A stretch of 64,000 nucleotides of DNA from positions 43,152,001 through 43,216,000 of the forward strand of contig OZ024747.1 of NCBI GenBank assembly GCA_964016885.1. Reading direction: 5' to 3'. This DNA comes from Eledone cirrhosa (Eukaryota). A program made the translations under genes and the position numbers. This document shows, one piece after another, positions 18,753 through 64,000 of the stretch. Under the pieces are notes generated by a model. It ran no database searches. It was given only the letters and a program-made list of their open reading frames with translations, and had not been told where the DNA came from. Position 1 is the stretch's first letter. Each line of letters opens with the position of its first letter.

Positions 18753-18766
18753 AATTTCTCATTCTT

Positions 18767-24276: not shown

Positions 24277-26371
<2,095 letters not shown>

Positions 26372-29723: not shown

Positions 29724-30289
29724 AATATATATATATATATGTATATAGACATGTGTTCATATTCATGTATAATTATAGTATACATACACAGACAAAAACA
29801 CATATTAATGGCAATGTTTGTATTTGAGTATCTTTATTTGTGCTTATGTCCGTGTGTATATATACTAAGGCTAATATATATTTAGATCTGTGTGCATCTA
29901 TTTACAGCTAAGTAGCTGCAGGGGCTATTGAATGTTTAATGTCTCGTCCTTGTATCCAAGCATAACACTGGTGATGGAACACAAAATCTTGAACCTGCGG
30001 TCGATAATCCATCCTTTATCTACCCAGACAATCATGACACCCTTCCTTGTAACAATAGTTTAGTCTTATATGACTATAGAATTATGTCAGCTGAAAGCAA
30101 AGACATACCCCTAGCAGAGCAAAGATACTCACAGTAAAGATACATCACGTTTAACCCAGCATACATTCATAATTTATAAACTTAGATATTAACACAACCT
30201 TAACTGTTAACACTGTACCACATGAAACTATATCAGTAAGACATTCATACAAAGTACAAACCAGCATGATGACTGTCATCACCATTCTT

Positions 30290-31148: not shown

Positions 31149-31477
31149 TTGGTGGTAGTAGTGCTGGCAAACTGGTTGATGGATTAAATCTATCACTTAG
31201 GTAAGCCACATTGGAATATGAACAGAAAATTGAAAGAGCCAGAACAAACACTACAATGTATGTCACCCTTTCTTCTAACAATTTCCCCCAACCCCTGCCC
31301 TGGACTGCTACTTTATTTTATCAATGTTGAAATATCACTGGAGTCAAATACCACCAACAACAACCATCAATATGATTTCTATTGCAGTTGCTGGAGCTGA
31401 TCAAAATAGCAGCCAAAATTCTCACAAGTCACACTCCTACTGGCAGGATAGGTGAACCTAGAGTATTATGAACCTAG

Positions 31478-35317: not shown

Positions 35318-35319
<2 letters not shown>

Positions 35320-35354
<35 letters not shown>

Positions 35355-35642
35355 CCGTTTAACGTCCGTGTTCCACGCTTGCATGGGTTTGGACGGGGGT
35401 AGTCCCACTTGAGGCAAGAGTGATTGTCTTGCTCGCATAGGACTGTCTGGCAGGTTTTCTACAGTTGGATGCCCTTCCTAACACCAACCACATTTACAGT
35501 GTGGGTCTGGGAGGTTTTTACCGTGTTGCCTACACGGCCACATTACAGCATGGACTGTGTGTTTTTTTGTCGTGACACCTACACGATCTCATTTGTTTCG
35601 GCCTGGATGGTGTGGCACCAACACAACTTTACATAGAACGGG
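35320..35642 (-). mobile_element. RTE LINE 3'-UTR copy
   Basis: Nearly identical to the reverse complement of 14955-15260. Confidence 0.88.
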
Positions 35643-35715
35643 ATATATATATATAATATATAGCTTTATGTTTCTGTTGGTTCACCAACTTGAGCATTCG
35701 ATGTGTGTGGGTCTG

Positions 35716-39495: not shown

Positions 39496-39614
39496 ATTAT
39501 TATTGTTGTTGATGTTGTTGTTACTTGTTTGTCTATATAATCATTTATTTATTCCTGCATAGCAACCTAACATAGTACTGTATGCTGCACCAGGAGCACC
39601 ACTGGCTGTGCATA

Positions 39615-41632: not shown

Positions 41633-42015
41633 GGAGGCACATGGCTTAGTGGTTAGAGCATTGGCCTTGCAATCGAAAGGTTGTGAGTTCAATTCTCAGA
41701 CAGGGTGATGTGTTGTTTCCTTGAGCAAGACACTTTATTTCACATTGCTCCAGTTTACTCAGCTGTAGAAATGAGATGATAGGACTGGGGTCCCTATCAT
41801 TCCACTGGAAAGTGGTAGTGGAGGTACCATGGCAAAAAAGCACCCATCACTCACTGTAAAGTGGACGTGTAGGCACCACGGAAGAACAGCACCCATCACT
41901 CACTGTAAATGAGGTTGGTGTTAGGAAGGGCATCCAGCTGTAGAAATCAAGCCAGAATCAATTCCCGTCCCATCCTTCCAAGCAGGCAAAAGCTGACGTA
42001 AAATGATGATGATGA

Positions 42016-42018
<3 letters not shown>
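41633..42018 (+). mobile_element. tRNA-derived SINE family A with a duplicated internal unit
   Basis: AGCACCCATCACTCACTGTAAA occurs twice. An older diverged head lies at 41356-41490. Confidence 0.9.
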
Positions 42019-42063
<45 letters not shown>

Positions 42064-42254: not shown

Positions 42255-42740
42255 AAAAAAACACACACAGTCCACGCTGTAATGTGGCCGTGTAGGTAAC
42301 ACGGTAAAAACCTCCCAGTCCACACTGTAAACGTGGTTGGTGTTAGGAAGGGCATCCAGCCATAGAAAACCTGCCAGACAGTCCTATACAAGCAAGACAA
42401 CCAATCTTGCCTCACGTGGGACAATTCCTGTCTAAACCCATGCTAGCGTGGAAGATAGACGTTAAACGATGATGATGATGATGATATATATATATATATA
42501 TATATTGTGTTGGTACCATAAAACATCCAGCCCACACTGTAAAATGGTCATGTAAAATCACGGCAAAAGCACCCAGCACTCTCTGTAAATGTGGCTGCCG
42601 TTAGGAAGGGCATCCAGTCAGAAACAGTTCTATATGAGTGAGACACGGTCACCTGACCCAACTTGCCTCTAAATGGGACAAACCCCCGTCTAACCCATGC
42701 TAGCGTGAAAGATAGACGTTAAACGATGATGATGATGATG
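42255..42740 (+). mobile_element. Two consecutive RTE/SINE 3'-tail fragments
   Basis: Each has two CACTGTAA-type units, TTAGGAAGGGCATCCAG and GACGTTAAACGATGATGATG. Confidence 0.82.
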
Positions 42741-43999
42741 ATATATATAAGAATGAAGAATAAGGCGGTATTCTGGAATCTGTCTTATTTTTCGTTCTTA
42801 TACAAAAACTCTAAGGTAATCAAATGGCAGAGTCATTAGAATGTTGGATAGAATGCTTTGCTGCATTCATGTTGGCTCACTAATTGCTAAGTTCAAATCT
42901 TGTCCAGGTCAACATTGCCTTTCTTCCATTCGAGGCTGATAAAAAAAGTACCAGTTTAGTACTGGGTCAATTCTTCCTCTGTATCTCTTTTTCACTTCCC
43001 ATTCTCTCACTTTCTATCCTTCTCTGGAAGAAATATGCCGTATCCAGATCTATAGAGGAGATGGGCTCTGCCAGGTTTAAACATACCCTAGAAATGTTGT
43101 ATGTCAATAGAGCACCCCTACAACTCCCTCACGAGTTATGACACAATGCATGAGCACAAAAACTCAGTTGTACATAAACCTTTGTGATTATATCACAGTC
43201 TGGAAACTATATGACGTTGAATGCTAAATCCTGTGTACTCAAGAGTTAATTGAGTGACAAGTACAATTGGGAAACAATAACTGATTAACAATCACAGACG
43301 GACCAATCACATATATATATCAGTTCTTGTATGAGCAAGGCATGGTCAGCCGACCAGACACTGCCCACAACAGGACAACCCGTCTAACCCATGCTAGCGT
43401 GGAAGAACGGACGTAAAACGGTGATGATGATGATGATGATGTGTGTAAGCATGAGCTTGTTTCTCTTTCTGTATTTGTATTTGTCTGTGTGTGTGTGTGT
43501 GGAAGCATAAAAGACAAGATAAAATATATTGTTAATAGGTTCACACTCAGAGAAGTAAAAGTATTTTTATGTTTCAGACACAAGTCCTTTAACAGGAAAC
43601 AGTAGGAGAATAGGAGAGAAAATACAAAATGTGAAAAAAGTATATAGAAGATAGTTGTATCATATATGTATGTGTATTATATATTTGTGTGTATATATTT
43701 ATACATACACACAAGCATACATACATGTTGCTACTTTTTGTCAGAAGAGTGCCATCTCTTCATTAAACCTTTAGCATTCACATTATTTTATATATACTAT
43801 TATATTTTAATGGTAAAAGCTTTACCTCACATAATATCTCACATAATATCGAATCTATGAGATTTTGAAAGTATTTATTTTGAGAACAATACTTTAACAA
43901 CAGTTTGAGTGACAGTTCAGCTAGTTTCAACAGAAAGAGGTAGAGAATTCTGGTCGGTTTGAACACTAAAGGGTTAAACATTGCACAATCATGGGCATG

Positions 44000-44513: not shown

Positions 44514-44556
<43 letters not shown>

Positions 44557-44979: not shown

Positions 44980-45145
44980 CATCATCATCTTCATCATCAC
45001 TGTTTAATGTTCATTTTTCCATGCTAGCGCAGGTTAGAAAGGTTGTCCCATTGTGAGACAAGTCAGATCAGATGACTGTTTTGCACATACAGAATTTTTC
45101 TGGCTTGGTTTCTATGGCTAGATACCCTTCCTAATGCCAACCACA
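44980..45145 (-). mobile_element. RTE/SINE 3' tail anchoring the 48-bp satellite
   Basis: (CAT)n, GTTTAATGTTC...CCATGCTAGC and CCCTTCCTAATGCCAACCACA run directly into the first TTTACAGTGTGG. Confidence 0.88.
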
Positions 45146-48100
45146 TTTACAGTGTGGACTTGGCAGTTTTTGTAGCACCAAAACGACTGCTTTACAGTGT
45201 GGGCTGGGCAGTTTTTGTTGTAGCACCAAAACGACTGCTTTACAGTGTGGACTGGGCAGTTTTTGTTGTAGCACCAAAACGACTGCTTTACAGTGTGGAC
45301 TTGGCGGTTTTTGTTGTAGCACCAAAACGACTGCTTTACAGTGTGGGCTGGGCAGTTTTTGTTGTAGCACCAAAACGACTGCTTTACAGTGTGGACTTGG
45401 CAGTTTTTGTTGTAGCACAAAAATGACTGCTTTACAGTGTGAACTTGGCAGTTTTTGTTGTAGCACCAAAACGAATGCTTTACAGTGTGGACTTGGCAGT
45501 TTTTGTTGTAGCACCAAAACGACTGCTTTACAGTGTGGGCTGGGCAGTTTTTGTTGTAGCACCAAAACGACTGCTTTACAGTGTGGGCTGGGCAGTTTTT
45601 GTTGTAGCACCAAAACGACAGCTTTACAGTGTGGGCTGGGCAGTTTTTGTTGTAGCACCAAAACGACAGCTTTACAGTGTGGGCTGGGCAGTTTTTGTTG
45701 TAGCACCAAAACGACTGCTTTACAGTGTGGGCTGGGCACTTTTTGTTGTAGCACCAAAACGACTGCTTTACAGTGTGGACTTGGCACTTTTTGTTGTAGC
45801 ACCAAAACGACTGCTTTACAGTGTGGGCTGGGCAGTTTTTGTTGTAGCACCAAAACGACTGCTTTACAGTGTGGACTTGGCACTTTTTGTTGTAGCACCA
45901 AAACGACTGCTTTACAGTGTGGACTTGGCAGTTTTTGTTGTAGCACTAAAACGACTGCTTTACAGTGTGGGCTGGGCAGTTTTGTTGTAGCACCAAAACG
46001 ACTGCTTTTCAGTGTGGACTTGGCAGTTTTTGTTGTAGCACCAAAACGACTGCTTTACAGTGTGGACTTGGCACTTTTTGTTGTTGCACCAAAACAACTG
46101 CTTTACAGTGTGGGCTGGGAAGTTTTTGTTGTAGCACCAAAACGACTGCTTTACAGTGTGGGCTGGGCAGTTTTTGTTGTAGCACCAAAACGACTGCTTT
46201 ACAGTGTGTGCTGGGCGGTTCTTGTTGTAGCACCAAAACGACTACTTTACAGTGTGGACTTGGCAGTTTTTGTTGTAGCACCAAAACGACTGCTTTACAG
46301 TGTGGACTTGGCACTTTTTGTTGTAGCACCAAAACGACTGCTTTACAGTGTGGGCTGGGCAGTTTTTGTTGTAGCACCAAAACGACTGCTTTACAGTGTG
46401 GACTTGGCACTTTTTGTTGTAGCACCAAAACGACTGCTTTACAGTGTGGGCTGGGCAGTTTTTGTTGTAGCACCAAAACGACTGCTTCACAGTGTGGACT
46501 TGGCACTTTTTGTTGTAGCACCAAAACGACTGCTTTACAGTGTGGACTTGGCAGTTTTTGTTGTAGCACTAAAACGACTGCTTTACAGTGTGGGCTGGGC
46601 AGTTTTGTTGTAGCACGAAAACGACTGCTTTTCAGTGTGGACTTGGCAGTTTTTGTTGTAGCACCAAAACGACTGCTTTACAGTGTGGACTTGGCACTTT
46701 TTGTTGTTGCACCAAAACAACTGCTTTACAGTGTGGGCTGGGAAGTTTTTGTTGTAGCACCAAAACGACTGCTTTACAGTGTGGGCTGGGCAGTTTTTGT
46801 TGTAGCACCAAAACGACTGCTTTACAGTGTGTGCTGGGCGGTTCTTGTTGTAGCACCAAAACGACTACTTTACAGTGTGGACTTGGCAGTTTTTGTTGTA
46901 GCACCAAAACGACTGCTTTACAGTGTGGACTTGGCACTTTTTGTTGTAGCACCAAAACGACTGCTTTACAGTGTGGGCTGGGCAGTTTTTGTTGTAGCAC
47001 AAAAACGACTGCTTTACACTGTGGACTTGGCACTTTTTGTTGTAACACCAAAACGACTGCTTTACAGTGTGGGCTGGGCAGTTTTTGTTGTAGCACCAAA
47101 ACGACTGCTTTACAGTGTGGGCTGGGCAGTTTTTGTTGTAGCACCAAAACGACTGCTTTACAGTGTGGACTTGGCAGTTCTTGTTGTAGCACCAAAACGA
47201 CTACTTTACAGTGTGGACTTGGCACTTTTTGTTGTAGCACCAAAACGACTGCTTTACAGTGTGGACTTGGCAGTTTTTGTTGTAGCACCAAAACGACTGC
47301 TTTACAGTGTGGACTTGGCAGTTCTTGTTGTAGCACCAAAACGACTACTTTACAGTGTGGACTTGGCACTTTTTGTTGTAACACCAAAACGACTGCTTTA
47401 CAGTGTGGGCTGGGCAGTTTTTGTTGTAGCACCAAAACGACTGCTTTACAGTGTGGGCTGGGCAGTTTTTGTTGTAGCACCAAAACGACTGCTTTACAGT
47501 GTGGACTTGGCAGTTCTTGTTGTAGCACCAAAACGACTACTTTACAGTGTGGACTTGGCACTTTTTGTTGTAGCACCAAAACGACTGCTTTACAGTGTGG
47601 ACTTGGCAGTTTTTGTTGTAGCACCAAAACGACTGCTTTACAGTGTGGACTTGGCAGTTCTTGTTGTAGCACCAAAACGACTACTTTACAGTGTGGACTT
47701 GGCACTTTTTGTTGTAGCACCAAAACGACTGCTTTACAGTGTGGACTTGGCACTTTTTGTTGTAGCACCAAAACGACTGCTTTACAGTGTGGACTTGGCA
47801 GTTTTTGTTGTAGCACCAAACCGACTGCTTTACAGTGTGGGCTGGGCAGTTTTTGTTGTAGCACCAAAACGACTGCTTTACAGTGTGGGCTGGGCAGTTT
47901 TTGTTGTAGCACCAAAACGACTGCTTTACAGTGTGCACTTGGCACATTTTGTTGTAGCACCAAAACGACTGCTTTACAGTGTGGGCTGGGCAGTTTTTGT
48001 TGTAGCACCAAAACGACTGCTTTACAGTGTGGACTTGGCACTTTTTGTTGTAGCACCAAAACGACTGCTTTACAGTGTGGACTTGGCAGTTTTTGTTGTA

Positions 48101-51100
48101 GCACCAAACCGACTGCTTTACAGTGTGGGCTGGGCAGTTTTTGTTGTAGCACCAAAACGACTGCTTTACAGTGTGGGCTGGGCAGTTTTTGTTGTAGCAC
48201 CAAAACGACTGCTTTACAGTGTGCACTTGGCACTTTTTGTTGTAGCACCAAAACGACTGCTTTACAGTGTGGGCTGGGCAGTTTTTGTTGTAGCACCAAA
48301 ACGACTGCTTTACAGTGTGGGCTGGGCAGTTTTTGTTGTAGCACCAAAACGACTGCTTTACAGTGTGGACTTGGCGCTTTTTGTTGTAGCACCAAAACGA
48401 CTGCTTTACAGTGTGGGCTGGGCAGTTTTTGTTGTAGCACCAAAACGACTGCTTTACAGTGTGGGCTGGGCAGTTTTTGTTGTAGCACCAAAACGACTGC
48501 TTTACAGTGTGGGCTGGGCAGTTTTTGTTGTAGTACCAAAACGACTGCTCTACAGTGTGGGCTGGGCAGTTTTTGTTGTAGCACCAAAACGACTGCTTTA
48601 CAGTGTGGACTTGGCAGTTTTTGTTGTAGCACAAAAATGACTGCTTTACAGTGTGGACTTGGCAGTTTTTGTTGTAGCACCAAAACGACTGCTTTACAGT
48701 GTGGACTTGGCACTTTTTGTTGTAGCACCAAAACGACTGCTTTACAGTGTGGGCTGGGCAGTTTTTGTTGTAGCACCAAAACGACTGCTTTACAGTGTGG
48801 GCTGGGCAGTTTTTGTTGTAGCACCAAAACGACTGCTTTACAGTGTGGGCTGGGCAGTTTTTGTTGTAGCACCAAAACGACTGCTTTACAGTGTGGGCTG
48901 GGCACATTTTGTTGTAACACCAAAACGACTGCTTTACAGTGTGGACTGGGCAGTTTTTGTTGTAGCACCAAAACGACTGCTTTACAGTGTGGGCTGGGCA
49001 GTTTTTGTTGTAGCACCAAAACGACTGCTTTACAGTGTGGACTTGGCAGTTTTTGTTGTAGCACCAAAACGACTGCTTTACAGTGTGGGCTGGGCAGTTT
49101 TTGTTGTAGCACCAAAACGACTGCTTTACAGTGTAGGCTGGGCAGTTTTTGTTGTAGCACCAAAACGACTGCTTTACAGTGTGGACTTGGCAGTTTTTGT
49201 TGTAGCACCAAAACGACTGCTTTACAGTGTGGGCTGGGCAGTTTTTGTTGTAGCACCAAAACGACTGCTTTACAGTGTGGACTTGGCAGTTTTTGTTGTA
49301 GCCCAAAAATGACTGATTTACAGTGTGGACTTGGCAGTTTTTGTTGTAGCACCAAAACGACTGCTTTACAGTGTGGGCTGGGCAGTTTTTGTTGTAGCAC
49401 CAAAACGACTGCTTTACAGTGTGGACTTGGCAGTTTTTGTTGTAGCACCAAAACGACTGCTTTACAGTGTGGGCTGGGCAGTTTTTGTTGTAGCACCGAA
49501 ACGACTGCTTTACAGTGTGGGCTGGGCAGTTTTTGTTGTAGCACCAAAACGACTGCTTTACAGTGTGGACTTGGCACTTTTTGTTGTAGCACCAAAACGA
49601 CTGCTTTACAGTGTGGGCTGGGCAGTTTTTGTTGTAGCACCAAAACGACTGCTTTACAGTGTGGGCTGGGCAGTTTTTGTTGTAGCACCAAAACGACTGC
49701 TTTACAGTGTGGGCTGGTCACTTTTTGTTGTAACACCAAAACGACTGCTTTACAGTGTGGACTTTGCAGTTCTTGTTGTAGCACCAAAACGACTGCGTTA
49801 CAGTGTGGACTTGGCACTTTTTGTTGTAGCACCAAAACGACTGCTTTACAGTGTGGACTTGGCGCTTTTTGTTGTAGCACCAAAACGACTGCTTTACAGT
49901 GTGGACTTGGCACTTTTTGTTGTAGCACCAAAACGACTGCTTTACAGTGTGGGCTGGGCAGTTTTTGTTGTAGCACAAAAATGACTGCTTTACAGTGTGG
50001 ACTTGGCAGTTTTTGTTGTAGCACCAAAACGACTGCTTTACAGTGTGGGCTGGTCACTTTTTGTTGTAACACCAAAACGACTGCTTTACAGTGTGGACTT
50101 TGCAGTTCTTGTTGTAGCACCAAAACGACTGCGTTACAGTGTGGGCTGGGCAGTTTTTGTTGTAGCACCAAAACGACTGCTTTACAGTGTGGACTTGGCG
50201 CTTTTTGTTGTAGCACCAAAACAACTGCTTTACAGTGTGGACTTGGCAGTTTTTGTTGTAGCACAAAAATGACTGCTTTACAGTGTGGACTTGGCAGTTT
50301 TTGTTGTAGCACCAAAACGACTGCTTTACAGTGTGGACTTGGCAGTTTTTGTTGTAGCACCAAAACGACTGCGTTACAGTGTGGGCTGGGCAGTTTTTGT
50401 TGTAGCACCAAAACGACTGCTTTACAGTGTGGGCTGGGCAGTTTTTGTTGTAGCACCAAAACGACTGCTTCACAGTGTGGGCTGGGCAGTTTTTGTTGTA
50501 GCACCAAAACGACTGCTTTACAGTGTGGGCTGGGCACTTTTTGTTGTAGCACCAAAACGACTGCTTTACAGTGTGGACTTGGCAGTTTTTGTTGTAGCAC
50601 CAAAACGACTGCTTTACAGTGTGGGCTGGGCAGTTTTTGTTGTAGCACCAAAACGACTGCTTTACAGTGTGGGCTGGGCAGTTTTTGTTGTAGCACCAAA
50701 ACGATTGCTTTACAGTGTGGACTTGGCGCTTTTTGTTGTAGCACCAAACGACTGCTTTACAGTGTGGGCTGGGCAGTTTTTGTTGTAGCACCAAAACGAC
50801 TGCTTTACAGTGTGGACTTGGCGCTTTTTGTTGTAGCACCAAAACGACTGCTTTACAGTGTGGGCTGGGCAGTTTTTGTTGTAGCACCAAAACGACTGCT
50901 TTACAGTGTGGACTTGGCAGTTTTTGTTGTAGCACCAAAACGACTTCTTTACAGTGTGGACTTGGCAGTTTTTGTTGTAGCACCAAAACGACTGCTTTAC
51001 AGTGTGGGCTGGGCAGTTTTGTTGTAGCACCAAAACGACTGCTTTACAATGTGGACTTGGCAGTTTTTGTTGTAGCACCAAAACGACTGCTTTACAGTGT

Positions 51101-54100
51101 GTGCTGGGCGGTTCTTGTTGTAGCACCAAAACGACTATTTTACAGTGTGGACTTGACAGTTTTTGTTGTAGCACCAAAACGACTGCTTTACAGTGTGGAC
51201 TTGGCACTTTTTGTTGTAGCACCAAAACGACTGCATTACAGTGTGGGCTGGGCAGTTTTTGTTGTAGCACCAAAACGACTGCTTTACACTGTGGACTTGG
51301 CACTTTTTGTTGTAGCACCAAAACGACTGCTTTACAGTGTGGGCTGGGAAGTTTTTGTTGTAGCACCAAAACGACTGCTTTACAGTGTGGGCTGGGCAGT
51401 TTTTGTTGTAGCACCAAAACGACTGCTTTACAGTGTGTGCTGGGCGGTTCTTGTTGTAGCACCAAAACGACTATTTTACAGTGTGGACTTGACAGTTTTT
51501 GTTGTAGCACCAAAACGACTGCTTTACAGTGTGGACTTGGCACTTTTTGTTGTAGCACCAAAACGACTGCATTACAGTGTGGGCTGGGCAGTTTTTGTTG
51601 TAGCACCAAAACGACTGCTTTACACTGTGGACTTGGCACTTTTTGTTGTAGCACCAAAACGACTGCTTTACAGTGTGGGCTGGGCAGTTTTTGTTGTAGC
51701 ACCAAAACGACTGCTTTACAGTGTGGGCTGGGCAGTTTTTGTTGTAGCACCAAAACGACTGCTTTACAGTGTGGACTTGGCAGTTCTTGTTGTAGCACCA
51801 AAACGACTACTTTACAGTGTGGACTTGGCACTTTTTGTTGTAGCACCAAAACGATTGCTTTACAGTGTGGACTTGGCAGTTTTTGTTGTAGCACCAAAAC
51901 GACTGCTTTACAGTGTGGACTTGGCAGTTTTTGTTGTAGCCCAAAAATGACTGATTTACAGTGTGGACTTGGCAGTTTTTGTTGTAGCACCAAAACGACT
52001 GCTTTACAGTGTGGACTTGGCAGTTTTTGTTGTAGCACCAAAACGACTGCTTTACAGTGTGGGCTGGGCAGTTTTTGTTGTAGCACCAAAACGACTGCTT
52101 TACAGTGTGGGCTGGGCAGTTTTTGTTGTAGCACCAAAACGACTGCTTTACAGTGTGGACTTGGCAGTTTTTGTTGTAGCACCAAAACGACTGCTTTACA
52201 GTGTGGACTTGGCGCTTTTTGTTGTAGCACCAAAACGACTGCTTTACAGTGTGGACTTGGCACTTTTTGTTGTAGCACCAAAACGACTGCTTTACAGTGT
52301 GGGCTGGGCAGTTTTTGTTGTAGCACAAAAATGACTGCTTTACAGTGTGGACTTGGCAGTTTTTGTTGTAGCACCAAAACGACTGCTTTACAGTGTGGGC
52401 TGGTCACTTTTTGTTGTAACACCAAAACGACTGCTTTACAGTGTGGACTTTGCAGTTCTTGTTGTAGCACCAAAACGACTGCGTTACAGTGTGGGCTGGG
52501 CAGTTTTTGTTGTAGCACCAAAACGACTGCTTTACAGTGTGGACTTGGCGCTTTTTGTTGTAGCACCAAAACAACTGCTTTACAGTGTGGACTTGGCAGT
52601 TTTTGTTGTAGCACCAAAACGACTGCGTTACAGTGTGGGCTGGGCAGTTTTTGTTGTAGCACCAAAACGACTGCTTTACAGTGTGGGCTGGGCAGTTTTT
52701 GTTGTAGCACCAAAACGACTGCTTCACAGTGTGGGCTGGGCAGTTTTTGTTGTAGCACCAAAACGACTGCTTTACAGTGTGGGCTGGGCAGTTTTTGTTG
52801 TAGCACCAAAACGACTGCTTTACAGTGTGGACTTGGCACTTTTTGTTGTAGCACCAAAACGACTGCTTTACAGTGTGGACTTGGCAGTTTTTGTTGTAGC
52901 ACCAAACCGACTGCTTTACAGTGTGGGCTGGGCAGTTTTTGTTGTAGCACCAAAACGACTGCTTTACAGTGTGGGCTGGGCAGTTTTTGTTGTAGCACCA
53001 AAACGACTGCTTTACAGTGTGCACTTGGCACTTTTTGTTGTAGCACCAAAACGACTGCTTTACAGTGTGGGCTGGGCAGTTTTTGTTGTAGCACCAAAAC
53101 GACTGCTTTACAGTGTGGGCTGGGTAGTTTTTGTTGTAGCACCAAAACGACTGCTTTACAGTGTGGACTTGGCGCTTTTTGTTGTAGCACCAAAACGACT
53201 GCTTTACAGTGTGGGCTGGGCAGTTTTTGTTGTAGCACCAAAACGACTGCTTTACAGTGTGGGCTGGGCAGTTTTTGTTGTAGCACCAAAACGACTGCTT
53301 TACAGTGTGGGCTGGGCAGTTTTTGTTGTAGCACCAAAACGACTGCTTTACAGTGTGGGCTGGTCACTTTTTGTTGTAACACCAAAACGACTGCTTTACA
53401 GTGTGGACTTTGCAGTTCTTGTTGTAGCACCAAAACGACTGCGTTACAGTGTGGACTTGGCACTTTTTGTTGTAGCACCAAAACGACTGCTTTACAGTGT
53501 GGGCTGGGCAGTTTTTGTTGTAGCACCAAAACGACTGCTTTACAGTGTGGGCTGGGCAGTTTTTGTTGTAGCACCAAAACGACTGCTTTACAGTGTGGGC
53601 TGGGCAGTTTTTGTTGTAGCACCAAAACGACTGCTTTACAGTGTGGGCTGGGCAGTTTTTGTTGTAGCACCAAAACGACTGCTTTACAGTGTGGGCTGGG
53701 CACATTTTGTTGTAACACCAAAACGACTGCTTTACAGTGTGGACTGGGCAGTTTTTGTTGTAGCACCAAAACGACTGCTTTACAGTGTGGGCTGGGCAGT
53801 TTTTGTTGTAGCACCAAAACGACTGCTTTACAGTGTGGACTTGGCAGTTTTTGTTGTAGCACCAAAACGACTGCTTTACAGTGTGGGCTGGGCAGTTTTT
53901 GTTGTAGCACCAAAACGACTGCTTTACAGTGTAGGCTGGGCAGTTTTTGTTGTAGCACCAAAACGACTGCTTTACAGTGTGGGCTTGGCAGTTTTTGTTG
54001 TAGCACCAAAACGACTGCTTTACAGTGTGGGCTGGGCAGTTTTTGTTGTAGCACCAAAACGACTGCTTTACAGTGTGGACTTGGCAGTTTTTGTTGTAGC

Positions 54101-57100
54101 CCAAAAATGACTGATTTACAGTGTGGACTTGGCAGTTTTTGTTGTAGCACCAAAACGACTGCTTTACAGTGTGGACTTGGCAGTTTTTGTTGTAGCACCA
54201 AAACAACTGCTTTACAGTGTGGGCTGGGCAGTTTTTGTTGTAGCACCAAAACGACTGCTTTACAGTGTGGACTTGGCAGTTTTTGTTGTAGCACCAAAAC
54301 GACTGCTTTACAGTGTGGGCTGGGCAGTTTTTGTTGTAGCACCAAAACGACTGCTTTACAGTGTGGGCTGGGCAGTTTTTGTTGTAGCACCAAAACGACT
54401 GCTTTACAGTGTGGACTTGGCACTTTTTGTTGTAGCACCAAAACGACTGCTTTACAGTGTGGGCTGGGCAGTTTTTGTTGTAGCACCAAAACGACTGCTT
54501 TACAGTGTGGGCTGGGCAGTTTTTGTTGTAGCACCAAAACGACTGCTTTACAGTGTGGGCTGGTCACTTTTTGTTGTAACACCAAAACGACTGCTTTACA
54601 GTGTGGACTTTGCAGTTCTTGTTGTAGCACCAAAACGACTGCGTTACAGTGTGGACTTGGCACTTTTTGTTGTAGCACCAAAACGACTGCTTTACAGTGT
54701 GGACTTGGCGCTTTTTGTTGTAGCACCAAAACGACTGCTTTACAGTGTGGACTTGGCACTTTTTGTTGTAGCACCAAAACGACTGCTTTACAGTGTGGGC
54801 TGGGCAGTTTTTGTTGTAGCACAAAAATGACTGCTTTACAGTGTGGACTTGGCAGTTTTTGTTGTAGCACCAAAACGACTGCTTTACAGTGTGGGCTGGT
54901 CACTTTTTGTTGTAACACCAAAACGACTGCTTTACAGTGTGGACTTTGCAGTTCTTGTTGTAGCACCAAAACGACTGCGTTACAGTGTGGGCTGGGCAGT
55001 TTTTGTTGTAGCACCAAAACGACTGCTTTACAGTGTGGACTTGGCGCTTTTTGTTGTAGCACCAAAACAACTGCTTTACAGTGTGGACTTGGCAGTTTTT
55101 GTTGTAGCACAAAAATGACTGCTTTACAGTGTGGACTTGGCAGTTTTTGTTGTAGCACCAAAACGACTGCTTTACAGTGTGGACTTGGCAGTTTTTGTTG
55201 TAGCACCAAAACGACTGCGTTACAGTGTGGGCTGGGCAGTTTTTGTTGTAGCACCAAAACGACTGCTTTACAGTGTGGGCTGGGCAGTTTTTGTTGTAGC
55301 ACCAAAACGACTGCTTCACAGTGTGGGCTGGGCAGTTTTTGTTGTAGCACCAAAACGACTGCTTTACAGTGTGGGCTGGGCACTTTTTGTTGTAGCACCA
55401 AAACGACTGCTTTACAGTGTGGACTTGGCAGTTTTTGTTGTAGCACCAAAACGACTGCTTTACAGTGTGGGCTGGGCAGTTTTTGTTGTAGCACCAAAAC
55501 GACTGCTTTACAGTGTGGGCTGGGCAGTTTTTGTTGTAGCACCAAAACGATTGCTTTACAGTGTGGACTTGGCGCTTTTTGTTGTAGCACCAAACGACTG
55601 CTTTACAGTGTGGGCTGGGCAGTTTTTGTTGTAGCACCAAAACGACTGCTTTACAGTGTGGACTTGGCGCTTTTTGTTGTAGCACCAAAACGACTGCTTT
55701 ACAGTGTGGGCTGGGCAGTTTTTGTTGTAGCACCAAAACGACTGCTTTACAGTGTGGACTTGGCAGTTTTTGTTGTAGCACCAAAACGACTGCTTTACAG
55801 TGTGGACTTGGCAGTTTTTGTTGTAGCACCAAAACGACTGCTTTACAGTGTGGGCTGGGCAGTTTTGTTGTAGCACCAAAACGACTGCTTTACAGTGTGG
55901 ACTTGGCAGTTTTTGTTGTAGCACCAAAACGACTGCTTTACAGTGTGTGCTGGGCGGTTCTTGTTGTAGCACCAAAACGACTATTTTACAGTGTGGACTT
56001 GACAGTTTTTGTTGTAGCACCAAAACGACTGCTTTACAGTGTGGACTTGGCACTTTTTGTTGTAGCACCAAAACGACTGCATTACAGTGTGGGCTGGGCA
56101 GTTTTTGTTGTAGCACCAAAACGACTGCTTTACACTGTGGACTTGGCACTTTTTGTTGTAGCACCAAAACGACTGCTTTACAGTGTGGGCTGGGAAGTTT
56201 TTGTTGTAGCACCAAAACGACTGCTTTACAGTGTGGGCTGGGCAGTTTTTGTTGTAGCACCAAAACGACTGCTTTACAGTGTGTGCTGGGCGGTTCTTGT
56301 TGTAGCACCAAAACGACTATTTTACAGTGTGGACTTGACAGTTTTTGTTGTAGCACCAAAACGACTGCTTTACAGTGTGGACTTGGCACTTTTTGTTGTA
56401 GCACCAAAACGACTGCATTACAGTGTGGCCTGGGCAGTTTTTGTTGTAGCACCAAAACGACTGCTTTACACTGTGGACTTGGCACTTTTTGTTGTAGCAC
56501 CAAAACGACTGCTTTACAGTGTGGGCTGGGCAGTTTTTGTTGTAGCACCAAAACGACTGCTTTACAGTGTGGGCTGGGCAGTTTTTGTTGTAGCACCAAA
56601 ACGACTGCTTTACAGTGTGGACTTGGCAGTTCTTGTTGTAGCACCAAAACGACTACTTTACAGTGTGGACTTGGCACTTTTTGTTGTAGCACCAAAACGA
56701 TTGCTTTACAGTGTGGACTTGGCAGTTTTTGTTGTAGCACCAAAACGACTGCTTTACAGTGTGGACTTGGCAGTTTTTGTTGTAGCCCAAAAATGACTGA
56801 TTTACAGTGTGGACTTGGCAGTTTTTGTTGTAGCACCAAAACGACTGCTTTACAGTGTGGACTTGGCAGTTTTTGTTGTAGCACCAAAACGACTGCTTTA
56901 CAGTGTGGGCTGGGCAGTTTTTGTTGTAGCACCAAAACGACTGCTTTACAGTGTGGACTTGGCAGTTTTTGTTGTAGCACCAAAACGACTGCTTTACAGT
57001 GTGGGCTGGGCAGTTCTTGTTGTAGCACCAAAACGACTGCTTTACAGTGTGGGCTGGGCAGTTTTTGTTGTAGCACCAAAACGACTGCTTTACAGTGTGG

Positions 57101-60100
57101 ACTTGGCAGTTTTTGTTGTAGCACCAAAACGACTGCTTTACAGTGTGGACTTGGCGCTTTTTGTTGTAGCACCAAAACGACTGCTTTACAGTGTGGACTT
57201 GGCACTTTTTGTTGTAGCACCAAAACGACTGCTTTACAGTGTGGGCTGGGCAGTTTTTGTTGTAGCACAAAAATGACTGCTTTACAGTGTGGACCTGGCA
57301 GTTTTTGTTGTAGCACCAAAACGACTGCTTTACAGTGTGGGCTGGTCACTTTTTGTTGTAACACCAAAACGACTGCTTTACATTGTGGACTTTGCAGTTC
57401 TTGTTGTAGCACCAAAACGACTGCGTTACAGTGTGGGCTGGGCAGTTTTTGTTGTAGCACCAAAACGACTGCTTTACAGGGTGGACTTGGCGCTTTTTGT
57501 TGTAGCACCAAAACAACTGCTTTACAGTGTGGACTTGGCAGTTTTTGTTGTAGCACAAAAATGACTGCTTTACAGTGTGGACTTGGCAGTTTTTGTTGTA
57601 GCACCAAAACGACTGCTTTACAGTGTGGACTTGGCAGTTTTTGTTGTAGCACCAAAACGACTGCGTTACAGTGTGGGCTGGGCAGTTTTTGTTGTAGCAC
57701 CAAAACGACTGCTTTACAGTGTGGGCTGGGCAGTTTTTGTTGTAGCACCAAAACGACTGCTTCACAGTGTGGGCTGGGCAGTTTTTGTTGTAGCACCAAA
57801 ACGACTGCTTTACAGTGTGGGCTGGGCACTTTTTGTTGTAGCACCAAAACGACTGCTTTACAGTGTGGACTTGGCAGTTTTTGTTGTAGCACCAAAACGA
57901 CTGCTTTACAGTGTGGACTTGGCAGTTTTTGTTGTAGCACCAAAACGACTGCTTTACAGTGTGGGCTGGGCAGTTTTTGTTGTAGCACCAAAACGACTGC
58001 TTTACAGTGTGGACTTGGCAGTTTTTGTTGTAGCACCAAAACGACTGCTTTACAGTGTGGGCTGGGCAGTTTTTGTTGTAGCACCAAAACGACTGCTTTA
58101 CAGTGTGGGCTGGGCAGTTTTTGTTGTAGCACCAAAACGACTGCTTTACAGTGTGGACTTGGCAGTTTTTGTTGTAGCACCAAAACGACTGCTTTACAGT
58201 GTGGACTTGGCGCTTTTTGTTGTAGCACCAAAACGACTGCTTTACAGTGTGGACTTGGCACTTTTTGTTGTAGCACCAAAACGACTGCTTTACAGTGTGG
58301 GCTGGGCAGTTTTTGTTGTAGCACAAAAATGACTGCTTTACAGTGTGGACTTGGCAGTTTTTGTTGTAGCACCAAAACGACTGCTTTACAGTGTGGGCTG
58401 GTCACTTTTTGTTGTAACACCAAAACGACTGCTTTACAGTGTGGACTTTGCAGTTCTTGTTGTAGCACCAAAACGACTGCGTTACAGTGTGGGCTGGGCA
58501 GTTTTTGTTGTAGCACCAAAACGACTGCTTTACAGTGTGGACTTGGCGCTTTTTGTTGTAGCACCAAAACAACTGCTTTACAGTGTGGACTTGGCAGTTT
58601 TTGTTGTAGCACCAAAACGACTGCGTTACAGTGTGGGCTGGGCAGTTTTTGTTGTAGCACCAAAACGACTGCTTTACAGTGTGGGCTGGGCAGTTTTTGT
58701 TGTAGCACCAAAACGACTGCTTCACAGTGTGGGCTGGGCAGTTTTTGTTGTAGCACCAAAACGACTGCTTTACAGTGTGGGCTGGGCAGTTTTTGTTGTA
58801 GCACCAAAACGACTGCTTTACAGTGTGGACTTGGCACTTTTTGTTGTAGCACCAAAACGACTGCTTTACAGTGTGGACTTGGCAGTTTTTGTTGTAGCAC
58901 CAAACCGACTGCTTTACAGTGTGGGCTGGGCAGTTTTTGTTGTAGCACCAAAACGACTGCTTTACAGTGTGGGCTGGGCAGTTTTTGTTGTAGCACCAAA
59001 ACGACTGCTTTACAGTGTGCACTTGGCACTTTTTGTTGTAGCACCAAAACGACTGCTTTACAGTGTGGGCTGGGCAGTTTTTGTTGTAGCACCAAAACGA
59101 CTGCTTTACAGTGTGGGCTGGGTAGTTTTTGTTGTAGCACCAAAACGACTGCTTTACAGTGTGGACTTGGCGCTTTTTGTTGTAGCACCAAAACGACTGC
59201 TTTACAGTGTGGGCTGGGCAGTTTTTGTTGTAGCACCAAAACGACTGCTTTACAGTGTGGGCTGGGCAGTTTTTGTTGTAGCACCAAAACGACTGCTTTA
59301 CAGTGTGGGCTGGGCAGTTTTTGTTGTAGTACCAAAACGACTGCTTTACAGTGTGGGCTGGGCAGTTTTTGTTGTAGCACCAAAACGACTGCTTTACAGT
59401 GTGGACTTGGCAGTTTTTGTTGTAGCACAAAAATGACTGCTTTACAGTGTGGACTTGGCAGTTTTTGTTGTAGCACCAAAACGACTGCTTTACAGTGTGG
59501 ACTTGGCACTTTTTGTTGTAGCACCAAAACGACTGCTTTACAGTGTGGGCTGGGCAGTTTTTGTTGTAGCACCAAAACGACTGCTTTACAGTGTGGGCTG
59601 GGCAGTTTTTGTTGTAGCACCAAAACGACTGCTTTACAGTGTGGGCTGGGCAGTTTTTGTTGTAGCACCAAAACGACTGCTTTACAGTGTGGGCTGGGCA
59701 CATTTTGTTGTAACACCAAAACGACTGCTTTACAGTGTGGACTGGGCAGTTTTTGTTGTAGCACCAAAACGACTGCTTTACAGTGTGGGCTGGGCAGTTT
59801 TTGTTGTAGCACCAAAACGAGTGCTTTACAGTGTGGACTTGGCAGTTTTTGTTGTAGCACCAAAACGACTGCTTTACAGTGTGGGCTGGGCAGTTTTTGT
59901 TGTAGCACCAAAACGACTGCTTTACAGTGTGGACTTGGCAGTTTTTGTTGTAGCCCAAAAATGACTGATTTACAGTGTGGACTTGGCAGTTTTTGTTGTA
60001 GCACCAAAACGACTGCTTTACAGTGTGGACTTGGCAGTTTTTGTTGTAGCACCAAAACAACTGCTTTACAGTGTGGGCTGGGCAGTTTTTGTTGTAGCAC

Positions 60101-63100
60101 CAAAACGACTGCTTTACAGTGTGGACTTGGCAGTTTTTGTTGTAGCACCAAAACGACTGCTTTACAGTGTGGGCTGGGCAGTTTTTGTTGTAGCACCAAA
60201 ACGACTGCTTTACAGTGTGGGCTGGGCAGTTTTTGTTGTAGCACCAAAACGACTGCTTTACAGTGTGGACTTGGCACTTTTTGTTGTAGCACCAAAACGA
60301 CTGCTTTACAGTGTGGGCTGGGCAGTTTTTGTTGTAGCACCAAAACGACTGCTTTACAGTGTGGGCTGGGCAGTTTTTGTTGTAGCACCAAAACGACTGC
60401 TTTACAGTGTGGGCTGGTCACTTTTTGTTGTAACACCAAAACGACTGCTTTACAGTGTGGACTTTGCAGTTCTTGTTGTAGCACCAAAACGACTGCGTTA
60501 CAGTGTGGACTTGGCACTTTTTGTTGTAGCACCAAAACGACTGCTTTACAGTGTGGACTTGGCGCTTTTTGTTGTAGCACCAAAACGACTGCTTTACAGT
60601 GTGGACTTGGCACTTTTTGTTGTAGCACCAAAACGACTGCTTTACAGTGTGGGCTGGGCAGTTTTTGTTGTAGCACCAAAACGACTGCTTTACAGTGTGG
60701 ACTTGGCACTTTTTGTTGTAGCACCAAAACGACTGCATTACAGTGTGGGCTGGGCAGTTTTTGTTGTAGCACCAAAACGACTGCTTTACACTGTGGACTT
60801 GGCACTTTTTGTTGTAGCACCAAAACGACTGCTTTACAGTGTGGGCTGGGAAGTTTTTGTTGTAGCACCAAAACGACTGCTTTACAGTGTGGGCTGGGCA
60901 GCTTTTGTTGTAGCACCAAAACGACTGCTTTACAGTGTGTGCTGGGCGGTTCTTGTTGTAGCACCAAAACGACTATTTTACAGTGTGGACTTGACAGTTT
61001 TTGTTGTAGCACCAAAACGACTGCTTTACAGTGTGGACTTGGCACTTTTTGTTGTAGCACCAAAACGACTGCATTACAGTGTGGGCTGGGCAGTTTTTGT
61101 TGTAGCACCAAAACGACTGCTTTACACTGTGGACTTGGCACTTTTTGTTGTAGCACCAAAACGACTGCTTTACAGTGTGGGCTGGGCAGTTTTTGTTGTA
61201 GCACCAAAACGACTGCTTTACAGTGTGGGCTGGGCAGTTTTTGTTGTAGCACCAAAACGACTGCTTTACAGTGTGGACTTGGCAGTTTTTGTTGTAGCAC
61301 CAAAACAACTGCTTTACAGTGTGGGCTGGGCAGTTTTTGTTGTAGCACCAAAACGACTGCTTTACAGTGTGGACTTGGCAGTTTTTGTTGTAGCACCAAA
61401 ACGACTGCTTTACAGTGTGGGCTGGGCAGTTTTTGTTGTAGCACCAAAACGACTGCTTTACAGTGTGGGCTGGGCAGTTTTTGTTGTAGCACCAAAACGA
61501 CTGCTTTACAGTGTGGACTTGGCACTTTTTGTTGTAGCACCAAAACGACTGCTTTACAGTGTGGGCTGGGCAGTTTTTGTTGTAGCACCAAAACGACTGC
61601 TTTACAGTGTGGGCTGGGCAGTTTTTGTTGTAGCACCAAAACGACTGCTTTACAGTGTGGGCTGGTCACTTTTTGTTGTAACACCAAAACGACTGCTTTA
61701 CAGTGTGGACTTTGCAGTTCTTGTTGTAGCACCAAAACGACTGCGTTACAGTGTGGACTTGGCACTTTTTGTTGTAGCACCAAAACGACTGCTTTACAGT
61801 GTGGACTTGGCGCTTTTTGTTGTAGCACCAAAACGACTGCTTTACAGTGTGGACTTGGCACTTTTTGTTGTAGCACCAAAACGACTGCTTTACAGTGTGG
61901 GCTGGGCAGTTTTTGTTGTAGCACAAAAATGACTGCTTTACAGTGTGGACTTGGCAGTTTTTGTTGTAGCACCAAAACGACTGCTTTACAGTGTGGGCTG
62001 GTCACTTTTTGTTGTAACACCAAAACGACTGCTTTACAGTGTGGACTTTGCAGTTCTTGTTGTAGCACCAAAACGACTGCGTTACCGTGTGGGCTGGGCA
62101 GTTTTTGTTGTAGCACCAAAACGACTGCTTTACAGTGTGGACTTGGCGCTTTTTGTTGTAGCACCAAAACAACTGCTTTACAGTGTGGACTTGGCAGTTT
62201 TTGTTGTAGCACAAAAATGACTGCTTTACAGTGTGGACTTGGCAGTTTTTGTTGTAGCACCAAAACGACTGCTTTACAGTGTGGACTTGGCAGTTTTTGT
62301 TGTAGCACCAAAACGACTGCGTTACAGTGTGGGCTGGGCAGTTTTTGTTGTAGCACCAAAACGACTGCTTTACAGTGTGGGCTGGGCAGTTTTTGTTGTA
62401 GCACCAAAACGACTGCTTCACAGTGTGGGCTGGGCAGTTTTTGTTGTAGCACCAAAACGACTGCTTTACAGTGTGGGCTGGGCACTTTTTGTTGTAGCAC
62501 CAAAACGACTGCTTTACAGTGTGGACTTGGCAGTTTTTGTTGTAGCACCAAAACGACTGCTTTACAGTGTGGGCTGGGCAGTTTTTGTTGTAGCACCAAA
62601 ACGACTGCTTTACAGTGTGGGCTGGGCAGTTTTTGTTGTAGCACCAAAACGATTGCTTTACAGTGTGGACTTGGCGCTTTTTGTTGTAGCACCAAACGAC
62701 TGCTTTACAGTGTGGGCTGGGCAGTTTTTGTTGTAGCACCAAAACGACTGCTTTACAGTGTGGACTTGGCGCTTTTTGTTGTAGCACCAAAACGACTGCT
62801 TTACAGTGTGTGCTGGGCGGTTCTTGTTGTAGCACCAAAACGACTGCTTTACAGTGTAGGCTGGGCAGTTTTGTTGTAGCACCAAAACGACTGCTTTACA
62901 GTGTGGACTTGGCAGTTTTTGTTGTAGCACCAAAACGACTGCTTTACAGTGTGTGCTGGGCGGTTCTTGTTGTAGCACCAAAACGACTATTTTACAGTGT
63001 GGACTTGACAGTTTTTGTTGTAGCACCAAAACGACTGCTTTACAGTGTGGACTTGGCACTTTTTGTTGTAGCACCAAAACGACTGCATTACAGTGTGGGC

Positions 63101-64000
63101 TGGGCAGTTTTTGTTGTAGCACCAAAACGACTGCTTTACACTGTGGACTTGGCACTTTTTGTTGTAGCACCAAAACGACTGCTTTACAGTGTGGGCTGGG
63201 AAGTTTTTGTTGTAGCACCAAAACGACTGCTTTACAGTGTGGGCTGGGCAGTTTTTGTTGTAGCACCAAAACGACTGCTTTACAGTGTGTGCTGGGCGGT
63301 TCTTGTTGTAGCACCAAAACGACTATTTTACAGTGTGGACTTGACAGTTTTTGTTGTAGCACCAAAACGACTGCTTTACAGTGTGGACTTGGCACTTTTT
63401 GTTGTAGCACCAAAACGACTGCATTACAGTGTGGGCTGGGCAGTTTTTGTTGTAGCACCAAAACGACTGCTTTACACTGTGGACTTGGCACTTTTTGTTG
63501 TAGCACCAAAACGACTGCTTTACAGTGTGGGCTGGGCAGTTTTTGTTGTAGCACCAAAACGACTGCTTTACAGTGTGGACTTGGCAGTTCTTGTTGTAGC
63601 ACCAAAACGACTACTTTACAGTGTGGACTTGGCACTTTTTGTTGTAGCACCAAAACGATTGCTTTACAGTGTGGACTTGGCAGTTTTTGTTGTAGCACCA
63701 AAACGACTGCTTTACAGTGTGGACTTGGCAGTTTTTGTTGTAGCCCAAAAATGACTGATTTACAGTGTGGACTTGGCAGTTTTTGTTGTAGCACCAAAAC
63801 GACTGCTTTACAGTGTGGACTTGGCAGTTTTTGTTGTAGCACCAAAACGACTGCTTTACAGTGTGGGCTGGGCAGTTTTTGTTGTAGCACCAAAACGACT
63901 GCTTTACAGTGTGGACTTGGCAGTTTTTGTTGTAGCACCAAAACGACTGCTTTACAGTGTGGGCTGGGCAGTTTTTGTTGTAGCACCAAAACGACTGCTT
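45146..64000. repeat. 48-bp satellite DNA, ~390 monomers, continuing past the window end
   Basis: Consensus GCTTTACAGTGTGG(ACTT/GCTG)GGCAGTTTTTGTTGTAGCACCAAAACGACT. Very homogeneous, with a few 47-bp units. Confidence 0.99.

What the first reader, a model, noticed from the sequence alone, without database searches (positions are those of the whole stretch)
44980..64000. A 19-kb+ satellite derived from an internal unit of a retrotransposon 3' tail, with intermediate stages in the same window
Seen: the array starts exactly where the minus-strand RTE/SINE tail carries its ~48-bp internal unit (…CCCTTCCTAATGCCAACCACA|TTTACAGTGTGG…). The homologous unit occurs 1-3 times in dispersed copies (4665-4770, 5445-5502, 15020-15105, 18485-18590, 41805-41910, 42255-42330), ~15 times at 30415-31148 behind the same tail, and ~390 times here. 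The two arrays have different consensus sequences, so they are independent expansions. Inference: this retroposon tail seeds tandem arrays, so each insertion can nucleate a locus-specific mini- or macrosatellite.
Basis: partly seen in the sequence, partly recalled or inferred. Interest (0 to 1): 0.85.

Follow-up and report, generated by a model that had tools for sequence, protein, structure and literature searches.

The report
Retrotransposon tail grown into local satellite
A 48-base unit that sits once or twice in the tail of a common jumping gene, in what is likely an octopus genome, is repeated at least 393 times behind one old copy, likely by recent unequal DNA exchange at that one spot; this route to satellite DNA is known from reptiles and plants.

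Summary
An array of 393 monomers (45146-64000, open-ended) abuts a minus-strand retroposon 3' tail. A profile built only from dispersed units hits 392 of 393 monomers. The unit lies in the 3' UTR of an RTE-like LINE and in a tRNA-headed SINE. Of 12 copies with a full unit, 10 hold 1-2 units, one holds 15 and one 393+. The two arrays are separate amplifications (77% identical consensus, unrelated flanks).

Refinements: both arrays sit behind old, long LINE-type tails, not the young SINE. Near-identical 0.6-2.7 kb block duplications point to recent growth at the DNA level. Roughly calibrated contig depth suggests about 200-800 monomers in this organism and about 20 in a relative that shares the insertion. 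That fits a locus-scale, recent expansion, not a major centromeric satellite. No listed record bridges the tail/array junction.

'Each insertion can nucleate' is overstated (2 of 12), and an unrelated 46-bp array nearby suggests the region also matters. This is a new member of a known kind (squamate SINE-derived satellites; Ogre 3'UTR satellites).

The parts
45146..64000 (-). Large array: 393 head-to-tail 48-bp monomers, running off the window; nested 0.6-2.7 kb block duplications, no fixed higher-order period (strand = element sense)
44980..45145 (-). Old long (LINE-type) 3' tail ending in degenerate (GAT)n next to a short (TA)n; 72-78% identical to 13 dispersed tails, 81% to the tail at 30276; its 3'-most 90 bp and flank are present in a relative
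30416..31152 (-). Small array: 15 monomers of 47-52 bp plus a partial one, 16% mean pairwise difference among the ten 48-mers; no resumption into a 5' part, no TSD
30276..30415 (-). Old LINE-type 3' tail in front of the small array (about 20-nt internal deletion relative to the 44980 tail)
14734..15261 (+). 5'-truncated RTE-like LINE end: ORF C-terminus 14734-14904, then a 3' UTR with one degenerate and two full units (15005-15103), tail and (GAT)n
4495..4930 (-). Second 5'-truncated LINE end with a decayed ORF remnant (4841-4894) and two units (4665-4762)
5273..5618 (+). Full SINE copy: tRNA-like head, body, one unit (5453-5502), short tail, (GAT)n, set in (TA)n
18372..18758 (-). SINE copy with two units (18485-18582); head hits Rfam tRNA
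20442..20784 (+). SINE copy with one unit (20622-20670); head hits Rfam tRNA
41633..42019 (+). SINE copy with two units (41812-41909)
35318..35645 (-). Truncated LINE-type copy, tail 98% identical to that of the 14734-15261 copy, two full units (35493-35589) plus a degenerate one
42258..42742 (+). Two adjacent LINE-type tail copies truncated within their second unit (units 42258-42331 and 42507-42589)
24111..24307 (+). Old tail copy with one 48-bp unit (24120-24167), the dispersed unit closest to the small array (83%)

Best explanation
The array is a 48-bp unit from the 3' UTR of an RTE-like LINE, repeated at least 393 times behind one old, likely 5'-truncated insertion, and it likely grew there recently by DNA-level slippage followed by unequal exchange, with no function implied. 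Step 1 (shown): LINE and SINE copies carry one or two units plus the start of another, so each insertion delivers a ready-made direct repeat. Step 2 (shown for part of the tail): the insertion at 44980 is old; it is 19-28% diverged from nearly all other tails and is shared with a relative about 5% diverged in the flank. Step 3 (inferred): the repeat grew to a short array like the 15-unit one, and one locus-specific variant took over. Step 4 (pattern shown, mechanism inferred): multi-kilobase blocks of already-diverged monomers were copied at 0-0.26% difference, which needs unequal crossing-over, gene conversion or break-induced copying rather than reverse transcription. Step 5 (rough estimate): the result is one locus-scale array of some hundreds of monomers, 20-70 times more than in the relative.
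For: Unit homology. Unit lies between the ORF stop and the tail. The ORF end matches C-termini of endonuclease+RT proteins (62 hits at E<=0.001; RVT_1 in 4 of 11 hits scanned, Exo_endo_phos as well in 1) and ends in register with an Octopus vulgaris protein, CAI9729969.1. Series 1, 2, 15, 393+ units. Block duplications: 9 segments of 13-57 monomers, 0-4 differences each, scoring >=12 against at most 6 in 10 order shuffles. Longer array is more homogeneous (6% vs 16% pairwise). Orthologous contig in organism B covers 44595-45069 with 25 substitutions and 7 gaps. Array-specific G at 45237: summed depth 22,564 in X1 (single-copy 4.24 and 4.95), 1,049 in X4 (single-copy 15.4). Simulation gives 2,660-3,940 per unit depth for 393 monomers and 59-79 for 20, against 4,560-5,320 (X1) and 68 (X4) observed.
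Against: None of the 24 records listed (of about 43,000 laid) bridges the tail/array junction; the X4 contig ends at 45069. The tool warns that summed depth is no copy number; my calibration rests on two flank contigs in X1 and one in X4, and the tail bin differs 3-fold per single-copy depth between them, so the estimate spans about 200-800 monomers. The relative's low count could reflect sequence drift rather than a short array. RAD run X9 shows the array letter in 0 of 319 reads at 45237, but it also has no depth over 44618-44995, so it does not sample this locus. Organism C (X6) holds an exact 64-bp monomer piece, unexplained. The array is only 58-73% identical to in-window dispersed units, so its direct ancestor was not seen. 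The far end is outside the window and no genome is held.
Confidence: 0.72

Rival explanations
1. The region, not the tail, drives expansion: this is a low-recombination, subtelomeric or heterochromatic zone where any small direct repeat inflates, and the RTE unit is just one common substrate. This modifies rather than replaces the best explanation.
For: An unrelated 46-bp x16 array grew from a 58/59-bp unit at 21051-22254; other minisatellites lie at 587-895, 11070-11377, 14384-14731 and 22690-23169. Vondrak 2019 (PMC7004042) and Vassetzky 2023 (PMC10702118) report regional bias of such expansions.
Against: 10 of 12 unit-bearing copies in the same region stayed at 1-2 units. No chromosomal position is available.
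Confidence: 0.4
2. An older master element already carried a multi-unit VNTR (as SVA does, recalled), so both arrays were inserted pre-expanded and the large one only grew further.
For: The two array tails are mutual best matches (81%); both units are 48 bp while most young dispersed units are 49-50 bp; the large-array consensus is closer to the small-array consensus (77%) than to any dispersed unit (58-73%). Loose ends in X1 show dispersed units whose 3' half resembles the array's (table 7).
Against: The node joining the two arrays has only 30% support. The 48-bp dispersed copy at 24120 has one unit. Kilobase block duplications post-date any insertion.
Confidence: 0.2
3. The monomer belongs to a widespread satellite family (for instance centromeric) that came from the element long ago, and this window merely shows one edge of it.
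For: The array runs off the window; X1 holds 1.15-2.0 times the depth expected from the in-window monomers; organism C holds exact monomer pieces.
Against: Calibrated depth gives hundreds of monomers, not the tens of thousands expected of a megabase satellite, and about 20 in the relative. The junction is exactly in register with the element's own unit position.
Confidence: 0.07
4. The array length is inflated by misassembly of a shorter repeat.
For: Exact internal duplicates up to 1,437 bp; several blocks have 0 differences; no listed record spans the junction.
Against: 62 monomer variants in mosaic order with several different lags (26 to 249); the longest block pair differs at 4 sites; read-derived depth matches or exceeds 393 monomers unless single-copy depth is underestimated about 3-fold.
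Confidence: 0.06

Closest known systems
SINE-derived satellites (sSat1-3) of squamates, Vassetzky et al. 2023, PMC10702118 (read parts 1-4 of 5)
   Same: Tandem unit is a sub-part of a retroposon; one terminal unit continues to the element's end; loci range from a few to 320, about 950 or over 1200 units; longer loci are more homogeneous; locus-specific subvariants alternate; orthologous loci differ in unit number.
   Different: Here the unit (48 bp) is shorter than sSat units (about 70-290 nt), is already duplicated in ordinary copies, lies in the LINE-derived part, and the arrays sit behind LINE-type rather than SINE tails; the host is likely a cephalopod; each array has its own consensus, unlike the uniform snake sSat3.
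Satellites from 3'UTR tandem repeats of Ogre LTR-retrotransposons, Vondrak et al. 2019, PMC7004042 (read abstract and Discussion)
   Same: Short tandem repeats in the 3' UTR of an autonomous retroelement are dispersed as seeds and occasionally expand; intermediate array lengths coexist.
   Different: Ogre is an LTR element of plants; here it is a non-LTR RTE-like LINE and its SINE. Ogre-derived arrays build abundant pericentromeric satellites; this one looks single-locus scale, location unknown.
Minisatellites and satDNA from Alu, B1, MaLR, L1 and CR1, reviewed in Paco et al. 2019, PMC6947457 (read passages and Table 1)
   Same: First duplication from short direct repeats inside the element, then slippage, gene conversion or unequal crossing-over.
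   Different: No RTE-derived or cephalopod case appeared in the part of that table that I saw; the array here is far longer than typical minisatellites.
Octopus RTE LINEs (RTE-2_OV, PMC9115989; read passages, searched 1 of 8 readable supplements) and octopus CORE-SINEs OR1/OR2 (mentions in PMC4824008, PMC4758252; read passages)
   Same: RTE LINEs with microsatellite ends and tRNA/CORE SINEs are described in octopus; one MELT row seen lists an (AT)n target duplication.
   Different: RTE-2_OV is described with a microsatellite starting at the ORF end and making up most of its 3' UTR, unlike this unit-bearing UTR; identity of these elements with any named family was not tested.

Membership tests
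Retroposon-derived satellite (sSat pattern) | Monomer is homologous to an internal part of a dispersed retroposon | tested here: met
Retroposon-derived satellite (sSat pattern) | Terminal unit continues into the element up to its terminus | tested here: met
   44980-45145 and 30276-30415 run in register to (GAT)n
Retroposon-derived satellite (sSat pattern) | At least four middle monomers; longer arrays more homogeneous | tested here: met
   393 at 6% vs 15 at 16% pairwise difference (two arrays only)
SINE-derived satellite in the strict sense | Source copy is a SINE | tested here: not met
   Both array tails keep sequence that the four SINE copies lack and LINE ends have; an unseen long-tailed SINE cannot be excluded, so filed only as retroposon-derived
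SINE-derived satellite in the strict sense | Subtelomeric enrichment | not testable with these tools
   No genome held
Ogre-type 3'UTR-derived satellite | Short tandem repeat in the 3' UTR of an autonomous retroelement, with intermediate array lengths | tested here: met
   Units between stop codon 14904 and tail; 1, 2, 15, 393+ units
Ogre-type 3'UTR-derived satellite | Source is an LTR (Tat/Ogre) element | tested here: not met
   Ends in (GAT)n, copies are 5'-truncated, ORF end matches endonuclease+RT proteins: works like it, is not a member
RTE-clade LINE | ORF C-terminus like that of endonuclease+RT non-LTR proteins, ending without a zinc knuckle | tested here: met
   that this C-terminal type marks the RTE clade is recalled knowledge
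RTE-clade LINE | 3' end of short tandem repeats rather than poly(A) | tested here: met
   (GAT)n ends
RTE-clade LINE | RT-domain phylogeny within RTE | not testable with these tools
   Only 56 C-terminal residues of this family were found in the window
tRNA-derived SINE (CORE type) | tRNA-derived head | tested here: met
   Rfam RF00005 at gathering score in 2 of 4 copies; heads of all four align; ARAGORN finds no tRNA gene
tRNA-derived SINE (CORE type) | CORE central domain | not tested
   Resemblance recalled only; no CORE consensus was available from a call
Major (centromeric-type) satellite | High genomic abundance (megabase scale) | tested here: not met
   Rough calibrated depth gives about 200-800 monomers
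Major (centromeric-type) satellite | CENP-A binding or centromeric location | not testable with these tools
   No ChIP or chromosome data

The most novel reading that the evidence does not exclude
One of the commonest retroposon tails in this cephalopod genome carries a pre-duplicated, self-complementary 48-bp unit and so scatters thousands of VNTR seeds. Template-switch mutations that rebuild the unit's terminal stem (two double-sided compensatory pairs separate the large array from the small one) pick which seed explodes, producing species-specific macrosatellites within about 5% sequence divergence.
Probability: 0.15. Interest if true: 0.7.

Novelty: new member of a known kind. Interest (0 to 1): 0.4.

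Why it matters
The route from retroelement to satellite is established, so a specialist would not be very surprised. The value is as a clean case. The seed (1-2 units), an intermediate (15) and a macrosatellite (393+) lie in one 64-kb window, the source is a non-LTR RTE-like UTR in a likely cephalopod, and a relative seems to hold the same insertion with a far smaller array. With many seeds of datable age, a genome-wide census could test directly whether seed sequence, age or chromosomal position decides which repeats become satellites. Such arrays could also serve as species or population markers.

Tried and rejected
Whole-genome census: no genome is held. A 27-nt tail/unit junction pattern gave 0 matches in each of the metagenome, viral and prokaryote collections, so no further loci could be counted. 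The search for homologous proteins with the 56-aa ORF end: 6 candidates, none significant; Pfam on it: 0 families. Stronger-hairpin idea: folding energies of doubled monomers do not beat shuffles (large-array variants z from -1.1 to +2.2; dispersed units -2.1 to +1.9), so it was rejected as a general explanation. Only the compensatory-pair pattern remains as a post hoc lead (19 and 31 of 3000 random placements against two ancestors, but 362 of 3000 against a third; only 246 of 383 monomers keep the outer stem). Local segmental duplication of the two array loci: no flank homology except a dispersed SINE. Fixed higher-order repeat: autocorrelation peaks only at 0.25 (lag 101) and 0.20 (lag 7) over a background near 0.1. 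Resumption and TSD for the small array: none (best E 0.26; longest shared word 5 nt). No RNA holder listed, which says nothing on expression. Motif look-ups in supplement 1 of PMC9115989 and in full texts found nothing relevant; its other 7 readable and 2 oversized supplements were not read and may hold the octopus RTE sequences. Earlier findings: one unrelated bacterial note by sequence, none by place or words.
Full report
Observation. TRF finds a 48-bp array at 45146-64000 (393 copies, running off the window) and another at 30415-31152 (15.4 copies). The large array splits into 393 monomers, 383 of them 48 bp, with 62 variants and 4.2% mean divergence from the majority sequence. Mean pairwise difference is 6% in the large array and 16% among the ten 48-mers of the small one; the two majority sequences match at 37 of 48 positions. 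Both arrays begin immediately after a minus-strand tail that ends in degenerate (GAT)n.

The unit is the element's own. The large-array unit is 58-73% identical to each of 15 dispersed units, and at most 2 of 2000 shuffles reach those scores. Without the 12-nt phasing anchor the signal persists for 12 of 15 units (0-4 of 2000) and weakens for three (15-51 of 2000). An HMM built from 12 dispersed units alone hits 392 of 393 large-array monomers and 15 of 15 small-array monomers; the reversed window yields one hit at E 0.49. I aligned 16 tail copies; four more short stubs seen were left out. Twelve of the 16 reach a full unit: ten have 1-2 units, one has 15, one 393+. Two others hold only the unit's first bases and two are cut before it.

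What the elements are. Four copies are SINEs with a tRNA-like head (Rfam tRNA at gathering score in 2 of 4; no ARAGORN gene), a body, one or two units and a short tail; their tails are 94-97% alike. Two copies are LINE ends. At 14734-14904 an ORF end of 56 residues matches 62 proteins at E<=0.001. Four of 11 scanned carry RVT_1 and one also an endonuclease domain. Named hits among the 20 looked up are six plant proteins, one Octopus vulgaris protein and one 'hypothetical protein'; the octopus protein ends in register with the window's ORF. The units lie between the stop codon and the tail, that is in the 3' UTR. The RTE label rests on this C-terminus and the (GAT)n end, read with recalled knowledge; no RT domain of this family was found in the window. 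The octopus assignment rests on that one hit and on my recall of octopus repeats, so it is likely, not shown. Even one-unit copies carry the start of a second unit, so each copy holds a direct repeat at 48-50 bp spacing.

Which copies expanded. The SINE tail lacks a segment of about 50 nt that LINE tails have. The large-array tail keeps it and the small-array tail keeps part of it, so the seeds were LINE-type tails. They are old: the 44980 tail is 72-78% identical to 13 other tails and 60% to one very decayed copy. The two array tails are each other's best match at 81%. Their adjacent flanks are unrelated, apart from one dispersed SINE, so they are two insertions, possibly of one older subfamily. 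In a monomer tree the large array (its 14 commonest variants plus the first monomer, 15 of 62) and the small array form separate clades (UFBoot 100 and 84); the node joining them has 30. The small array does not resume into a SINE or LINE 5' part and shows no TSD, which fits a 5'-truncated insertion.

How it grew. The large array has no fixed higher-order period. It contains nine duplicated blocks of 13-57 monomers (0.6-2.7 kb) at lags of 26-249 monomers, differing by 0-0.26%; shuffled monomer orders score at most 6 against a cut-off of 12. Copying blocks of already-diverged monomers needs DNA-level events, and their near identity makes them recent. Which event (unequal crossing-over, gene conversion, break-induced copying) is inferred, not shown. 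Twelve variants occur only in the first 45 monomers, so the junction end is the least homogenised.

Outside evidence. Eleven runs were listed and four laid on 43700-45290. X1 (organism A) has flank contigs with no differences at depth 4.24 and 4.95. X4 (organism B) has a 485-bp contig over 44595-45069 at depth 15.4 with 25 substitutions and 7 gaps, covering flank plus the last 90 bp of the tail: the insertion is shared. At 45237 the array has G where dispersed units have A; G depth sums to 22,564 in X1, 1,049 in X4 and 83 in X6. The tool warns that such sums are no copy number, so I simulated k=31 unitigs from the window's own monomers. 393 monomers give 2,660-3,940 per unit of single-copy depth under four tie rules, and 20 monomers give 59-79. 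X1 shows 4,560-5,320 and X4 shows 68. Taken at face value that is 450-800 monomers in X1; allowing for a 3-fold error in single-copy depth (the tail bin differs 3-fold between X1 and X4), about 200-800. The relative has roughly 20, a 20- to 70-fold difference depending on normalisation. This argues against both assembly inflation and a megabase satellite. Limits: X1 may be the assembly's own source; none of the 24 listed records (of about 43,000) bridges the tail/array junction; drift could hide the relative's array. RAD run X9 has the array letter in 0 of 319 reads at 45237 but no depth over 44618-44995, so it does not sample the locus. X6 (organism C) holds an exact 64-bp monomer piece at depth 8, which may be a shared array or trace carry-over.

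Why this copy? Folding energies give no support for a stronger hairpin. Five of the 11 differences between the two arrays fall in one 5-bp stem (positions 18-22 with 44-48), with two pairs changed on both sides; random placement reaches this in 19 of 3000 trials, 31 of 3000 from a second ancestor, but 362 of 3000 from a third. On 18 hand-picked units 86% of cells pair against 20-46% for slid controls, but the structure was derived from these sequences and three rows are the same array. Only 246 of 383 monomers keep the stem. It is a post hoc lead; template switching between short inverted motifs would explain it without selection. A regional effect is at least as plausible: an unrelated 46-bp x16 array grew from a 58/59-bp unit at 21051-22254.

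Comparison. Vassetzky et al. 2023 (PMC10702118; parts 1-4 of 5 read) describe the same anatomy in squamates: a tandem sub-part of a SINE with a terminal unit running to the element's end, up to over 1200 units, more homogeneous when longer, biased to subtelomeres. Vondrak et al. 2019 (PMC7004042; abstract and Discussion) show that 9 of 11 major Lathyrus satellites arose from short tandem arrays in LTR elements, which the Discussion places in Ogre 3' UTRs. Paco et al. 2019 (PMC6947457; passages) list Alu, B1, MaLR, L1 and CR1 cases. This locus works like both systems but is neither a strict SINE-derived nor an LTR-derived case. Passages of PMC9115989, PMC5786205, PMC4758252 and PMC4824008 confirm octopus RTE LINEs and CORE-SINEs but did not let me name these families. 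Nine literature searches (listings only unless named above) showed no report of this cephalopod case; the library lacks most subscription papers and Repbase, and unread supplements of PMC9115989 may hold the element sequences.

Verdict. Real feature, correctly seen. It is a retroposon-UTR-derived, locus-scale and probably recent macrosatellite: a new member of a known kind. Interest 0.4.

Noticed in passing
window 21051-22450: A 58/59-bp unit (2-3 copies, twice) shortened to a 46-bp unit repeated 16 times, interleaved with two inverted copies of a second dispersed SINE-like family (21190-21381, 22279-22431). A third repeat-derived array, unrelated to the 48-bp unit; the 46-bp unit has no match elsewhere in the window.
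   Followed up: partly
window 16243-16431, 31471-31670, 39286-39497, 42887-42972, 38655-38689: Second dispersed SINE-like family, 78-91% identical pieces; it resembles Meta-domain SINEs from recall only.
   Followed up: partly
window 6595-11009 (-): Near-complete L1/Tx1-like LINE (label recalled): zinc-knuckle ORF (10374-11009), endonuclease+RT frame (7896-9857) and zf-RVT frame (6595-7875) broken by a frameshift near 7880.
   Followed up: partly
window 4333-4467 (+) and 29213-29312 (+): C-terminal remnants of a second RTE-like LINE family; the first ends tail to tail with the unit-bearing LINE end at 4495.
   Followed up: partly
window-wide, e.g. 5260-5630, 19188-19254, 42019-42510, 44968-44980: Most copies of this tail sit in (TA)n microsatellites and several are stacked in one another's (TA)n, suggesting a target preference; five LINE-type copies are 5'-truncated in or just beyond the unit region.
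   Followed up: no
window 45163-45167 with 45186-45190 and equivalent monomer positions 18-22/44-48: Array-specific substitutions form two double-sided compensatory pairs relative to the small array; possibly template-switch mutations.
   Followed up: partly
window 45173-45289: Run X6 of a different organism label holds 56-64 bp contigs with 0-2 differences to the large-array monomer, while its unique-flank depth is near zero: shared satellite or trace carry-over.
   Followed up: no
window 43754-43969: An unnamed very high-copy repeat: summed depth up to 2.0 million in X1 and 1.6 million in X4, about 1,400 in X6; one joint changes strand, so it may be palindromic.
   Followed up: no
window 5440-5415 region and equivalents in the four SINEs (e.g. 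20585-20612): A strong 12-bp hairpin lies between the SINE body and the first unit.
   Followed up: no
window 587-895, 11070-11377, 14384-14731, 22690-23169: Further minisatellites (104, 32, 51 and 23 bp units) built from microsatellite-like sequence.
   Followed up: no
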